Source: a virus
Taxonomy: Duplodnaviria > Heunggongvirae > Uroviricota > Caudoviricetes
Virus record (IMG/VR): IMGVR_UViG_2671180279_000001
Length of the DNA stretch: 15,355 nucleotides
Strand: one strand, 5' to 3'
Part shown: one piece after another, positions 11,948 through 15,355 of the stretch
Layout: each line of letters begins with the position of its first letter
Position numbering within the stretch: position 1 is the first letter of the stretch
Made by a program: the position numbers and the translations under genes
Notes under the pieces: model-generated
The model's database searches: none
What the model was told of the DNA's origin: nothing
What the model saw: only the letters and a program-made list of their open reading frames with translations

Positions 11948-12473
11948 CAGCGAATCAGATCAAATAAAACGCACATTTGTTAACATTTACACAAAGTCTG
12001 CGTGGGATATTCTGAAAGAATATCCATAATGTGGAGAGAATCTATTGAAGTGCATGGTGCCGGGTGCCTCCCGGTGAACAAAATGTTCGTGATACCTGTC
12101 GGCGACAGAAAAGGTTAATGGTATCACCCCACCGCACAGGGGGATTCACCATGCAGGAGTTTTCTTAGCAAACTCACTGCGCGCCCGGCAACTCCCAACC
12201 ACATAAAATGCGGAGTTTGTGGTATTTATGCATATAACTCGCAGGAATTATCTTAAAAAACTGATGTCGATCCGGATTAAAAAGAAGCAGGTCATCATCA
12301 GATGACTGGAAAAAAGGAAAACAAAAAATACTCATCATACAGTTTTGATTGCAGGGATGAGCCTGCTATGCACAATATGCAGAATATAAGCAAGATAAAA
12401 ATATGCAGGCATATTATTTCGGATTTTGTTATTAACACAACCTTTTTAATAATCATTTGGCATACAATAAACC

Positions 12474-13474: not shown

Positions 13475-13761
13475 AAATGACCTTTCTTTCTCCAGATTTC
13501 TTGTGTGCGAAAAACCCCTTCAGCATGCATCAGGCGCAATTCTTCTTTGGTGTAATCGCTGGTTTTTACCCGCCCGTCGATTAGATCGTGGCATGAGCTA
13601 CAGGCTATCGCCGCCTGCATATCGTGTGGTTTTGTCGCTGTTCCGCACGTCCCCGCCAGCCTGTAATGCGCCAGCACAGAGGTTTCGGGATTGTGATTGC
13701 AGTAGCCAGGGATTCTGATCTGGCACATCTGGCCTTTAGCCGCTTTACGTAAATTCACCAT
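13471..13761 (-). CDS. DUF1364 / YbcO-like phage protein (putative nuclease, Cys-rich)
   Basis: MVNLRKAAKGQMCQIRIPGYCNHNPETSVLAHYRLAGTCGTATKPHDMQAAIACSSCHDLIDGR... is closely similar to DLP12 YbcO as recalled (…LRKAARGRECQVRIPGVCNGNPETSVLAH…); coupled to flanking genes by TAATG/ATGA overlaps. Confidence 0.75.
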   Translation of the reverse strand: MVNLRKAAKGQMCQIRIPGYCNHNPETSVLAHYRLAGTCGTATKPHDMQAAIACSSCHDLIDGRVKTSDYTKEELRLMHAEGVFRTQEIWRKKGHL

Positions 13762-14360
13762 TACGCAAACTCCAGTAGTTGTGCGGCCACATTTTCAACT
13801 TCCTCCTGAGAGGAGAATTTACGGAACAGAATCCAGTTCCACAGCACATTCAGTACAGATTTATAAACCTGCTGAAACTCGACTTCGTCCATATTCGCAA
13901 AAGCGATGGATTTTGCCCGACGCCCACGGCTACCGTCCGGATAAATATGCTCGGTGTAAAATCCGGCCTGAATGGTTACCCACTCGCGGAAAGCCTCAAA
14001 CGACTTTAGCAACGCCGTATCCCGGGTTCTACGAGTCGCAACGGTGTTAAGGTATTGCTCTGCGGCATCACTCAGGGCTGGCGTGTGTTCCCGACCAACT
14101 GATTCGCACAGGTAATCAACGAAACCAGACAGCAGTTCTCGTTCGCGAGGCGTGATCGCCCCACCGACCGGAGTCCAGTAATCGAATCCCAGTTGCAGGA
14201 GTTTGAAAAAACGCTTGTGGAATGCGTAGTTACGCACACGCTTAAAGTCTGCGTGTATCCACTCACCTATTTTGATTTGATGCAGAAAATCGCAACTCTC
14301 CGGCGTCGCCGGGAGAAGTAAACCAGAAGAAGTTTGTTTGACCAGTTGTATATGCGCCAT
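13761..14360 (-). CDS. Nin-region phage protein, DUF1367-like (assignment from memory, weak)
   Basis: 199-aa ORF translationally coupled to the YbcO-like gene; its position upstream of YbcO-like and Q matches lambdoid nin regions. Confidence 0.45.
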   Translation of the reverse strand: MAHIQLVKQTSSGLLLPATPESCDFLHQIKIGEWIHADFKRVRNYAFHKRFFKLLQLGFDYWTPVGGAITPRERELLSGFVDYLCESVGREHTPALSDAAEQYLNTVATRRTRDTALLKSFEAFREWVTIQAGFYTEHIYPDGSRGRRAKSIAFANMDEVEFQQVYKSVLNVLWNWILFRKFSSQEEVENVAAQLLEFA

Positions 14361-14633
14361 TTCTCAATCTCTCGATGGCGCAGTGCAGCAGATGCCAGTT
14401 GTTCAGGCTGACGTATAAAGTATAAATAAACTGGTTCCAGTGTAAAGCCCCCACCTTAATGGAATAAAAACCAAACAACAGATTGCTGGGATACAAACAA
14501 CGCTTATTATTAAAAGCGGTTAAACAAATTAAATTTTAATGTTATGCAAATTTGTCAGATCACCATAATATCTCATTTGAAAACCGCTGAAATAACAATC
14601 CTATCAGGATTAATCATATTAAGGTGAGTAAAT

Positions 14634-14720
14634 ATGGAAAACAACAAATCTGCACATTACGCTCCTTTTTTATCTGTAATACTTTTTGTTTTTTGCTGTG
14701 TATGGGCATTATTTTTATAA
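14634..14720 (+). CDS. Candidate small hydrophobic protein (28 aa) with strong RBS
   Basis: AAGGTGAG Shine-Dalgarno 6 nt upstream of the ATG at 14634; product MENNKSAHYAPFLSVILFVFCCVWALFL has a polar N-terminus and one predicted transmembrane helix; absent from the ORF track because of its length. Confidence 0.3.
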   Translation: MENNKSAHYAPFLSVILFVFCCVWALFL

Positions 14721-14828
14721 AAATATTCACAGATAAAATAAACTCGCCGAATCAGGTTAAGTGTGGGTGCGTTGAGGATGCCTGACACATCAGAGGCGGC
14801 GAGGGATTTCTCCCTCGCCTAGTCACTC

Positions 14829-14984
14829 TTACTCCTCAGGTTCGTAAGCTGTGAAGACAGCGACCTCCGTCTGACCGGTTCGGATTCGCACCTCGCAGAG
14901 GTCTTTCCTCGTTACCAGTGCCGTCACTATGACGGTTAAACAGATGACAATCAGTGCGACTAACATCGCCTTTTGCTGCTTCAT
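14829..14984 (-). CDS. hokD: Hok/Gef-family type I toxin (HokD/RelF-like)
   Basis: 51-aa product MKQQKAMLVALIVICLTVIVTALVTRKDLCEVRIRTGQTEVAVFTAYEPEE matches HokD/RelF as recalled; AAGGAG Shine-Dalgarno 9 nt upstream; a GGCGAGGGA-GAAA-TCCCTCGCC hairpin (14791-14812) just 3' of the stop is consistent with hok mRNA 3' structure. Confidence 0.85.
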   Translation of the reverse strand: MKQQKAMLVALIVICLTVIVTALVTRKDLCEVRIRTGQTEVAVFTAYEPEE

Positions 14985-15057
14985 AGCCTGCTTCTCCTTG
15001 CCTTCCGGCGCGTAAGAGGCTAACCTACATGTGCAAAGCATGAAATTGGCCTCAGAT

Positions 15058-15355
15058 TGTACTGACCCCAAAAAGTTGGACAGTTAAACACGAGGCATAT
15101 AGGTCTGATTCCGATATTCAATTGGAGTCAGACCTTTTAATTTCAGGCTAATTCTTCTGCTGTTGTAGTATTCAATATATTCCGTAACAGCATCCTTCAG
15201 TTCGCTTATATTACTGAACTCATCAAGATAAAAACACTCCGACTTTAAGGTTCCAAAGAAACACTCCACCACAGCATTATCCAGACAATTGCCTTTTCTG
15301 GACATGCTTTGTTTAATACCATGTTCTTTAAGGATATTTTGATATCTTCTCATAC
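15058..15355 (-). mobile_element. IS3-family insertion sequence (IS150-like), end of element; continues past window end
   Basis: Terminus TGTACTGACCCCAAAAAGTTGGACAG starts at 15058 with TG (IS3-family ends are TG...CA); contains the transposase C-terminus on the minus strand. Confidence 0.85.
15084..15355 (-). CDS. IS3-family transposase (OrfB), C-terminal part; N-terminus outside window
   Basis: ...[31 protein letters not shown]...[28 protein letters not shown] is the conserved C-terminal region of IS3-family DDE transposases; reading frame open to the window edge. Confidence 0.85.

What the first reader, a model, noticed from the sequence alone, without database searches (positions are those of the whole stretch)
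14634..14720. Unannotated 28-aa hydrophobic ORF with a near-consensus RBS in the AT-rich region downstream of hok
AAGGTGAG sits 6 nt upstream of the ATG, and the product MENNKSAHYAPFLSVILFVFCCVWALFL has a polar N-terminus and a single transmembrane-like segment, an architecture typical of small membrane proteins and type I toxins. It is convergent with hok in an otherwise ORF-poor 470-bp AT-rich stretch.
Basis: seen in the sequence. Interest (0 to 1): 0.42.

Follow-up and report, generated by a model that had tools for sequence, protein, structure and literature searches.

The report
Unannotated conserved 28-codon prophage membrane-peptide gene
The 28-codon reading frame next to hok is very probably a real, never-annotated gene for a tiny membrane peptide, carried on its own ~260-bp cassette in Rac-like prophages of about a fifth of complete E. 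coli genomes; what it does is unknown.

Summary
The ORF is at 14634-14720 (+), as described. It encodes MENNKSAHYAPFLSVILFVFCCVWALFL and has a 6-nt perfect Shine-Dalgarno core (AGGTGA) 6 nt upstream.

On one sequence this is weak evidence. Comparison makes it strong. The region occurs in 1188 of 5426 complete E. coli genomes. No record shown annotates it, and none of six variants looked up is in a 15-billion-protein collection.

About 175 relatives were sampled by upstream DNA alone, at 74-100% identity. Every one not cut by a contig end keeps the same 28 codons, start and stop, with no indel. Across 26 haplotypes there are 29 synonymous and 31 nonsynonymous changes (omega about 0.27, p about 8e-7). 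No other frame is open in all of them.

The gene is independent of hok. A core of about 225 bp recurs with four different right neighbours (hok, the iteS peptidase, a DUF1971 gene, a tail-fibre region) and at least three left neighbours. The core holds a hairpin, a promoter-like block with fixed 16-nt spacing, a 5' UTR hairpin, the SD and the ORF. Hok- and iteS-linked copies add a shared terminator hairpin, giving about 260 bp.

I read it as a moron encoding a single-pass inner-membrane microprotein. A type I toxin role is possible but untested. It is a new family of a known kind, of moderate interest.

The parts
14634..14720 (+). 28-codon ORF plus TAA stop, encoding MENNKSAHYAPFLSVILFVFCCVWALFL: a polar 9-residue head and a 19-residue hydrophobic segment.
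   Evidence: Intact in all 26 nucleotide haplotypes from 274 locus entries, with omega about 0.27 and p about 8e-7, and the only frame open in every haplotype. Hydropathy.
14621..14628 (+). Shine-Dalgarno AAGGTGAG; the AGGTGA core is a 6-nt match to the anti-SD complement.
   Evidence: A purine-rich SD is kept in all lineages, though weaker in some: TAAGGTGAG, TAAAGTGAG, TAAGGTGGT, TAAGGTAGT.
14526..14571 (+). Putative promoter of the ORF (inferred): an A/T-rich UP-like block at 14526-14543, a weak -35-like ATGCAA at 14544-14549, a 16-nt spacer, and a -10-like TAATAT at 14566-14571. The predicted start of transcription is about 14578.
   Evidence: In 52 unique upstream sequences, ATG[C/A/T]AA, 16 nt, TA[A/G][T/C]AT is kept in 50. 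The spacer sequence varies but its length is fixed (alignments). The consensus scan did not call it, because its -35 is weak.
14597..14611 (+). Small 5' UTR hairpin, AATCC-TATCA-GGATT.
   Evidence: 92.9% of cells are paired. One pair covaries C-G/U-A at 7:6. The G.U and U.G variants pair only on the + strand RNA. The helix is short and the sequences closely related, so the support is weak.
14501..14518 (.). Conserved 5-bp hairpin (CGCTT-ATTATTAA-AAGCG) at the left edge of the cassette. Its function and strand are undetermined.
   Evidence: Compensatory changes: G-C to A-T in L208 (CACTT/AAGTG) and C-G to T-A in L012. Single-step G.U intermediates occur on either strand. The scan calls it terminator-like on the - strand.
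14613..14640 (-). Promoter-like site on the opposite strand, TTTCCA-16-TATGAT, overlapping the start codon. Together with the 14518-14501 hairpin it could give an antisense RNA of about 105 nt. Hypothetical.
   Evidence: Called in the window, L008 and L009. It matches only 9 of 12 positions, the number of sites does not exceed shuffles, and its -35 is fixed by the coding sequence.
14740..14758 (.). Remnant of the bidirectional terminator hairpin shared with the convergent neighbour. The window has AAACTCGCCGAATCAGGTT; most relatives have AAACCCGCCGAAGCGGGTT.
   Evidence: the hairpin is intact in most hok-linked copies and in all 34 iteS-linked copies, and degenerate in the window variant. It is called as a + strand terminator in L009 and as a - strand terminator in L008.
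14498..14758 (+). The whole cassette (moron-like unit): hairpin, promoter block, 5' UTR, SD, ORF and terminator. The minimal core shared with the most distant lineage is 14498-14722.
   Evidence: Homology with the L208 lineage is limited to this stretch. Flanks differ on both sides.

Best explanation
The ORF is a genuine, translated, previously unannotated gene. It is carried on a self-contained, horizontally exchanged cassette of about 225-260 bp (a 'moron') in Rac-like lambdoid prophages of Escherichia and Shigella.

**Shown**
- The 28-codon frame is under purifying selection at the protein level.
- It is retained with identical start and stop across three sequence lineages.
- It travels with its own upstream region, independently of the genes on either side.

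**Inferred**
- It is transcribed from its own weak sigma-70 promoter: an A/T-rich UP-like block, ATGCAA, 16 nt, TAATAT, with a start near 14578. Translation uses the AGGTGA Shine-Dalgarno sequence. Transcription ends at a hairpin shared with the convergent neighbour.
- It points against the phage early-right transcription (hok, then DUF1367, DUF1364 and the Q-like gene). It should therefore be expressed mainly from the repressed prophage and damped by transcriptional interference after induction.
- The product is a tail-anchored, single-pass inner-membrane microprotein. The polar head (MENNKSAHY) would face the cytoplasm and residues 10-28 would span the membrane.

**Most likely mode of action (speculative)**
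It binds or perturbs a membrane component of the host or of an incoming phage. This fits its fixed place at the edge of a prophage slot that otherwise holds hok, IteS, AbiL-like and other candidate defence genes.

**Rough probabilities**
- Real translated gene: 0.85.
- Membrane-inserted: 0.75.
- Autonomous transcription unit: 0.6.
- Exclusion or defence-related role: 0.3.
- Membrane-damaging toxin: 0.2.
For: **Reading frame**
- All 13 relatives fetched by DNA similarity (74-96% identity) have the intact ORF with no indel, while the flanks carry indels.
- Among 120 viral contigs sampled by an upstream DNA pattern that lies outside the ORF, 3 are chance matches and 2 are cut by an end. All 115 others have the intact 28-codon ORF.
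- Among 62 metagenome contigs sampled the same way, 61 are intact and 1 is cut by the contig end.

**Selection**
- 26 haplotypes give 29 synonymous and 31 nonsynonymous events on a minimum spanning tree, over 16.8 synonymous and 67.2 nonsynonymous sites.
- Omega is 0.27 and binomial p is 8e-7.
- The other frames give omega 0.57-1.13 and contain stops. The exception is the antisense frame that shares third positions (0.32), which has stops in 21 of 26 haplotypes.
- Segregating sites: ORF 36%, upstream 73%, downstream 83%. Codon positions 1/2/3 carry 5/9/17.

**Autonomy**
- Four junction types occur on the right and at least three on the left.
- Homology with the L208 lineage, which sits next to tail-fibre genes, is limited to about 14498-14722.
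- G+C is 29% in the ORF and 37% in the stretch. Differing G+C, plus a gene's own promoter and terminator, is how morons are defined (PMC3594210).

**Expression signals**
- Promoter-like hexamers at a fixed 16-nt spacing occur in 50 of 52 unique upstream sequences.
- An SD is kept in all lineages.
- The 5' UTR hairpin shows covariation and + strand-only wobble pairs.
- A + strand terminator lies right after the ORF in the iteS-linked copies, and the same stem occurs in the hok-linked copies.

**Membrane character**
- Mean hydropathy is 2.57 over 19 residues.

**Why it went unannotated**
- From my own knowledge, 87 nt is below the 90-nt minimum of Prodigal.
- None of the six commonest variants looked up is in the 15-billion-protein collection.
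Against: - There is no direct evidence of transcription or translation. I found no ribosome-profiling or RNA data for a strain that carries the ORF.
- The proposed promoter has a poor -35, and the consensus scan did not call it.
- In the window itself the terminator hairpin is degenerate.
- The predicted mRNA fold is not unusually stable (z = -1.1).
- The selection test rests on only 60 inferred changes in closely related sequences. It uses a spanning tree rather than a phylogenetic codon model, and recombination could distort the event counts.
- T-rich DNA gives hydrophobic peptides by composition alone, a point also made in PMC11188072.
- Variability along the predicted helix shows no helical periodicity (p = 0.49). 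There is therefore no sign of a conserved interaction face.
- The functional part (exclusion or modulation) has no support beyond genomic position.
Confidence: 0.6

Rival explanations
1. Type I toxin-antitoxin module. The peptide would be a membrane-depolarising toxin. Its synthesis would be held down by an antisense RNA of about 105 nt. That RNA would start at the - strand promoter-like site (14640-14613), end at the 14518-14501 hairpin, and overlap the 5' end of the toxin mRNA by about 30 nt.
For: - The size and architecture resemble those of ShoB, DinQ, TisB, ZorO and Ibs, as far as I recall them.
- A - strand promoter-like site and a - strand terminator-like hairpin are called at the same relative positions in the window, L008 and L009.
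- The hairpin shows compensatory changes.
- The cassette moves as a small autonomous unit.
Against: - The - strand promoter-like site matches only 9 of 12 positions and is no more frequent than in shuffles.
- Its -35 is dictated by codons 1-3, so its conservation says nothing.
- In the L011 lineage the spacing drops to 15 nt.
- The hairpin is a weak 5-bp A/T-rich stem, and in L208 no U-tract follows it.
- The SD is not clearly sequestered, and the mRNA fold has z = -1.1.
- The polar head is strongly conserved: M1, N3, N4 and H8 are invariant across all 26 haplotypes and E2 varies only to Gly. This is not what simple membrane damage would require.
- No family model matches.
Confidence: 0.2
2. 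Not a gene. The stretch would be conserved as non-coding DNA. It could be a recombination 'linker' at a mosaic boundary, or regulatory DNA/RNA for the neighbouring phage operon. The open frame would then be a by-product.
For: - The block just upstream of the ORF (14501-14550) is even more conserved than the ORF: 22% of sites segregate. Part of that is ascertainment by the search pattern.
- The cassette lies exactly at mosaic junctions.
- There is no expression evidence.
Against: - Substitutions follow the codon pattern of this frame only, with omega 0.27 and p 8e-7.
- Third positions carry 17 of 31 segregating sites.
- There is no indel in 87 nt, while both flanks have many.
- Start, stop and SD are kept in three lineages that are 74-80% identical.
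Confidence: 0.12
3. Regulatory leader or uORF, or a lipoprotein or secreted signal peptide. Either translation of the ORF would control a downstream + strand gene, or the peptide would be processed and exported.
For: - In the DUF1971-linked lineage a + strand gene follows about 450 nt downstream.
- There are weak hits to lipoprotein and spanin signal-peptide models: NF033515 at E = 0.046 and phrog_6073 at E = 0.24.
Against: - In most contexts the next gene is convergent, and a terminator follows the ORF.
- No canonical lipobox exists in most variants (FVFC, FVLC).
- The peptide ends inside the hydrophobic segment, so there is no mature domain.
- The family hits are far below the curated cut-offs.
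Confidence: 0.05

Closest known systems
Phage morons (for example the HK97 gene 15 moron; lambda bor and lom)
   Same: It is a small independent unit inserted between conserved phage modules. Its G+C differs from the neighbours. It has an inferred promoter and terminator of its own. It is oriented so that it can be expressed from the repressed prophage, and it has been exchanged horizontally between phages (definition in PMC3594210).
   Different: It is far smaller than described morons: about 225-260 bp with a 28-codon gene. Expression from the lysogen and any host benefit are untested.
Enterobacterial type I toxins (Hok/Gef, ShoB, DinQ, TisB, ZorO, Ibs)
   Same: It is a hydrophobic peptide of under 30 residues with one predicted membrane helix. 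It sits in an A/T-rich intergenic unit and has a candidate antisense promoter.
   Different: There is no sequence or family match: the Pfam, NCBIfam and PHROG scans gave nothing significant. No antitoxin RNA is demonstrated. The SD is not evidently sequestered. Toxicity is untested. It lies next to a real Hok gene but is not part of that module.
Small regulatory inner-membrane proteins of E. coli (MgtS, AcrZ, PmrR, KdpF, CydX class)
   Same: Length of 26-49 aa, a single transmembrane segment, and conservation at the protein level. This class acts by binding a larger membrane protein (my own knowledge).
   Different: Those proteins are chromosomal, and most are co-transcribed with or regulated alongside their partner. 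This one is prophage-borne with no constant neighbour, and no partner is known.
Conserved intergenic microprotein families of Enterobacteriaceae (Entero67K set, PMC11188072)
   Same: It is an intergenic smORF of 15-70 codons, under purifying selection, hydrophobic and unannotated.
   Different: The peptide strings were not found in the supplementary files held for that paper. Whether it is one of the 67,297 clusters is therefore unknown.

Membership tests
Hok/Gef toxin family (PF01848) | Sequence match to the family model. | tested here: not met
   A Pfam scan at E up to 10 gives only a chance Sec20 hit at E = 0.36. The NCBIfam and PHROG scans also give no Hok hit.
Type I toxin-antitoxin system | Small hydrophobic membrane peptide. 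| tested here: met
   28 aa; residues 10-28 have mean hydropathy 2.57.
Type I toxin-antitoxin system | Antisense RNA antitoxin that overlaps or pairs with the toxin mRNA. | tested here: inconclusive
   A - strand promoter-like site and a terminator-like hairpin recur. They are weak and not above shuffles, and no RNA data are available.
Type I toxin-antitoxin system | Toxicity of the peptide when over-produced. | not testable with these tools
   This needs an expression experiment.
Type I toxin-antitoxin system | Structured mRNA that limits translation. | tested here: inconclusive
   The + strand fold of 14570-14770 gives -37.5 kcal/mol, z = -1.08. Only a 5-bp 5' UTR hairpin is supported.
Phage moron | Present in some related phages and absent from or replaced in others, with variable neighbours. 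| tested here: met
   There are four right and at least three left junction types. It is absent from the K-12 Qin region examined, which has rem at the equivalent place.
Phage moron | Base composition different from the surrounding genes. | tested here: met
   The ORF is 29% G+C and the spacer 37%. The flanking coding DNA looks markedly G+C-richer in the sequence, but I did not compute its composition.
Phage moron | Own promoter and terminator. | tested here: inconclusive
   Conserved hexamers at a fixed 16-nt spacing occur in 50 of 52 sequences. A terminator hairpin follows the ORF. However, the consensus scan did not call the promoter, and no transcript ends have been mapped.
Phage moron | Expression from the repressed prophage. 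| not testable with these tools
   This needs RNA or protein data from a lysogen.
Bacterial lipoprotein or signal peptide | A lipobox [LVI][ASTVI][GAS]C, or a signal peptidase I site followed by a mature domain. | tested here: not met
   Most variants read FVFC or FVLC before the Cys, and the peptide ends 6-8 residues after it. The model hits are below their cut-offs.

The most novel reading that the evidence does not exclude
The cassette would be a new, extremely compact selfish or defensive module. It would consist of a 28-residue membrane toxin or phage-exclusion peptide with a cis-encoded antisense RNA, packed into about 225-260 bp and moving as an autonomous moron. It would also form the conserved left anchor of a defence-gene hotspot in Rac-like prophages, where hok, IteS, AbiL-like and other cargo are exchanged. 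Its own conserved sequence would then help recombinational swapping of defence cargo.
Probability: 0.15. Interest if true: 0.65.

Novelty: new member of a known kind. Interest (0 to 1): 0.4.

Why it matters
- **Annotation gap.** If translated, this gene is present in roughly a fifth of complete E. coli genomes yet is missing from every annotated record I examined and, for six variants looked up, from a 15-billion-protein collection. By my own knowledge of gene callers, the likely reason is that it is 3 nt shorter than a common minimum gene length.
- **Experimental use.** It gives a concrete, easily testable microprotein at a prophage position where defence genes are exchanged.
- **Hotspot landmark.** It offers a sequence landmark for finding that hotspot: the cassette on one side and the replication genes on the other.
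- **Limit.** Conserved hydrophobic intergenic smORFs are already known to be very numerous in Enterobacteriaceae. This is an addition to a known class, not a new principle.

Tried and rejected
- **Part of the hok/sok module: rejected.** The hok mRNA fold closes its 5'-3' pairing near 14770. The cassette also occurs without hok.
- **Known RNA family in the spacer: none.** At gathering threshold the only hit in the window is STnc100, elsewhere. At E up to 5 the only relevant hit is a sub-threshold sok match upstream of hok.
- **Protein family searches: nothing significant** in Pfam, NCBIfam or PHROGs.
- **Exact look-up of six variants among 15 billion proteins: none found**. The homology search of that collection refuses queries under 40 aa. 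The profile search and the structure prediction need at least 30 aa, so I did not run them.
- **Literature: no hits.** Full-text searches for the peptide string found nothing. Supplement searches of the Sakai smORF paper, the Enterobacteriaceae microproteome paper and the human-microbiome small-gene paper also found nothing.
- **Conserved helix face as a sign of a protein partner: rejected.** Variability shows no helical periodicity (p = 0.49).
- **Lipoprotein reading: rejected**, because most variants have no lipobox.
- **Terminal repeats that would mark a transposable mini-element: none convincing.** Only short A/T-rich matches turned up.
- **Strand of the 14501-14518 hairpin: left open.** Single-step G.U variants occur on both strands.
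- **Other ORFs of the stretch.** The frames overlapping the ORF (the 53-aa GTG ORF on the + strand and the 38- and 43-aa ORFs on the - strand) contain stops in many relatives. The region of the 27-aa ORF at 14544-14627 carries indels in relatives.
- **K-12 lacks the cassette** in the Qin region examined, so K-12 ribosome-profiling data cannot be used.

Full report
**What is in the window**

The ORF runs from ATG 14634 to TAA 14718-14720 on the + strand and encodes MENNKSAHYAPFLSVILFVFCCVWALFL. AAGGTGAG lies at 14621-14628. Its AGGTGA core matches the anti-SD complement perfectly over 6 nt and ends 6 nt before the ATG. An in-frame TGA inside the SD prevents any N-terminal extension.

All neighbouring genes are on the - strand:
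- an IS3-family transposase fragment (15084-15353);
- hokD (14829-14984);
- the 468-bp spacer of 37% G+C that holds the ORF;
- genes for DUF1367 (13761-14360), DUF1364 and a DUF1133/Q-like protein.

A related complete phage shows the wider layout: replication genes, variable cargo, this spacer, DUF1367, YbcO, Q, lysis genes and trkG. That is a Rac-like lambdoid prophage.

**Is the single-sequence observation more than chance?**

Only weakly. In dinucleotide shuffles of the spacer, 12% contain an ATG ORF of at least 28 aa with an SD match of at least 5 nt. Only 0.2% also have a hydrophobic window. T-rich DNA produces hydrophobic peptides anyway. The mechanical ORF list shows several other short ORFs in the stretch, so 'ORF-poor' is loose wording.

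**Comparative test of the reading frame**

The 261 bp around the ORF occur in 1188 of 5426 complete E. coli genomes, at 74-100% identity. None of the records listed has a feature there.

I fetched 13 relatives spread over that identity range.
- All keep the 28 codons, the same start and stop, and have no indel, while the flanks carry several indels.
- In the 76%-identity lineage the ORF is 83-85% identical to the window, against 67-69% for the 134 nt upstream.

To avoid ascertainment through the peptide, I then sampled by an upstream DNA pattern that lies outside the ORF.
- Viral contigs (120): 3 are chance matches, 2 are cut by an end, and all 115 others have the intact ORF.
- Metagenome contigs (62): 61 are intact and 1 is cut by the contig end.

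Pooled, there are 26 nucleotide haplotypes.
- On a minimum spanning tree there are 29 synonymous and 31 nonsynonymous changes, over 16.8 and 67.2 sites. Omega is 0.27 and p is 8e-7.
- No other frame is open in all haplotypes.
- The other frames give omega 0.57-1.13. The exception is the antisense frame that shares third positions (0.32), which has stops in 21 of 26 haplotypes.
- Segregating sites are 36% in the ORF, 73% upstream and 83% downstream. By codon position they number 5, 9 and 17.

**The unit is autonomous and not part of hok**

The hok mRNA fold closes its long-range 5'-3' pairing near 14770. The same ORF, with its upstream region, also occurs without hok.

Right-hand neighbours:
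- the 3' end of hok;
- the S8 anti-phage peptidase gene iteS;
- a DUF1971/TehB-like gene;
- in the L208 lineage, a region next to tail-fibre genes.

Left-hand neighbours:
- DUF1367;
- a 92-aa hypothetical protein plus DUF968;
- unrelated DNA.

Homology between the window and the L208 lineage is confined to about 14498-14722. No match to the 28-aa peptide or the conserved upstream motif was found in the K-12 Qin region I examined, which has rem at the equivalent position.

**Signals inside the cassette**

1. *Left-edge hairpin.* A 5-bp hairpin at 14501-14518 shows two compensatory changes.
2. *Promoter-like block.* A highly conserved A/T-rich block is followed by ATG[C/A/T]AA, exactly 16 nt of variable sequence, and TA[A/G][T/C]AT. 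This holds in 50 of 52 unique upstream sequences. I read this as an UP element, a weak -35 and a -10. The consensus scan did not call it, so it remains an inference.
3. *5' UTR hairpin.* The hairpin at 14597-14611 has 92.9% of cells paired and one covarying pair. Its wobble variants pair only on the + strand.
4. *Shine-Dalgarno.* An SD is kept in all lineages.
5. *Terminator.* About 20 nt after the stop lies the hairpin AAACCCGC-NNNN-GCGGGTT. It is shared by hok-linked and iteS-linked copies. It is called as a + strand terminator in L009 and as a - strand terminator in L008. In the window variant this hairpin is degenerate.

Differing G+C content together with a gene's own promoter and terminator is how a moron is defined (PMC3594210).

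**What it most likely is**

It is a translated microprotein gene on a moron. The product is predicted to be a single-pass membrane peptide, with mean hydropathy 2.57 over residues 10-28.

The ORF points against the phage early-right transcription. It should therefore be expressed mainly in the lysogen. This is an inference.

Function is unknown. Its position suggests a membrane-level role linked to exclusion or defence. It sits at the fixed left edge of a slot that holds hok, IteS, an AbiLi/AbiLii pair and other candidate defence proteins. That is only guilt by association.

**The type I toxin reading**

A - strand promoter-like site (TTTCCA-16-TATGAT, 14640-14613) and the - strand terminator-like hairpin recur in relatives. 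Together they would give an antisense RNA of about 105 nt that overlaps the 5' end of the mRNA.

The evidence is weak:
- the site matches 9 of 12 positions and is not above shuffles;
- its -35 is fixed by coding;
- the stem is weak;
- no U-tract follows the hairpin in L208;
- the mRNA fold is unremarkable.

I give this reading about 0.2.

**Is it known?**

- Pfam, NCBIfam and PHROGs give no hit.
- None of six variants looked up is in a 15-billion-protein collection.
- No paper, and none of the supplements I could search, holds the peptide.
- Only four phage records, all induced E. coli prophages, encode it, and none annotates it.
- From my own knowledge, 87 nt is below the 90-nt minimum of Prodigal, which would explain the gap.
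- The kind is well known. 67,297 intergenic smORF clusters under purifying selection, mostly hydrophobic, have been reported in Enterobacteriaceae (PMC11188072).

**Verdict**

The toxin idea is untested and the link to hok is incidental. This is a new family of a known kind, of moderate interest.

Noticed in passing
window 14760-15355, and the right flanks of L009-L015, L111, L150, L165: The DNA to the right of the cassette is a variable cargo slot in Rac-like prophages. It lies between the replication genes and the DUF1367/Q module. It holds hokD, the S8 anti-phage peptidase IteS, a DUF1971/TehB-like gene, an AbiLi/AbiLii-like pair, a 689-aa NTPase (weak PDC-M36A hit), an 824-aa protein (weak DrmMI-like N-terminus), and IS insertions.
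   Followed up: partly
window 14419-14446 (- strand): A promoter-like site, TTTACA-16-TATACT (10 of 12), points into the DUF1367 gene. Its hexamers and spacing are conserved even where the downstream gene is replaced by a 92-aa hypothetical protein plus DUF968. The spacer sequence varies. A strong-looking promoter in front of the nin/Q-like module of a prophage is unexpected.
   Followed up: partly
window 14501-14550: This is the most conserved non-coding block of the spacer. It holds the hairpin CGCTT-ATTATTAA-AAGCG with compensatory changes, followed by an invariant block AAATTA[A/C]ATTTTAATGTTATG that contains the palindrome ATTAAA-T-TTTAAT. Its function is unknown; it could be an UP element, a binding site or a weak terminator.
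   Followed up: partly
window 14740-14758: The terminator hairpin shared by hok and the small ORF is mutated in the window variant (ACTCGCCGAATCAGGT against ACCCGCCGAAGCGGGT in most relatives). It is also degraded in several lineages where hok is disrupted.
   Followed up: partly
window 11998-12184 (- strand): A full-length match to the Rfam sRNA family STnc100 (86.6 bits against a gathering score of 47). It lies between the Q-like gene and the lysis region.
   Followed up: no
window 14979-15081 (- strand): A sub-threshold match to the Rfam 'sok antitoxin' model (35.5 bits against a gathering score of 59) in the hok leader. An IS3-family transposase fragment begins immediately beyond it, at 15084.
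   Followed up: no
L208, L277, L279: This is a third lineage of the cassette, 78% identical over about 228 bp. It sits next to tail-fibre and tail-fibre-assembly genes in a phage whose flanks match no complete E. coli genome. Some copies have Gly instead of Glu at residue 2. The host is unidentified.
   Followed up: partly
window 14668-14687 and 14719-14738: A 20-nt inverted repeat, 80% complementary, pairs the middle of the ORF with the DNA just after its stop codon. Its significance is unknown.
   Followed up: no
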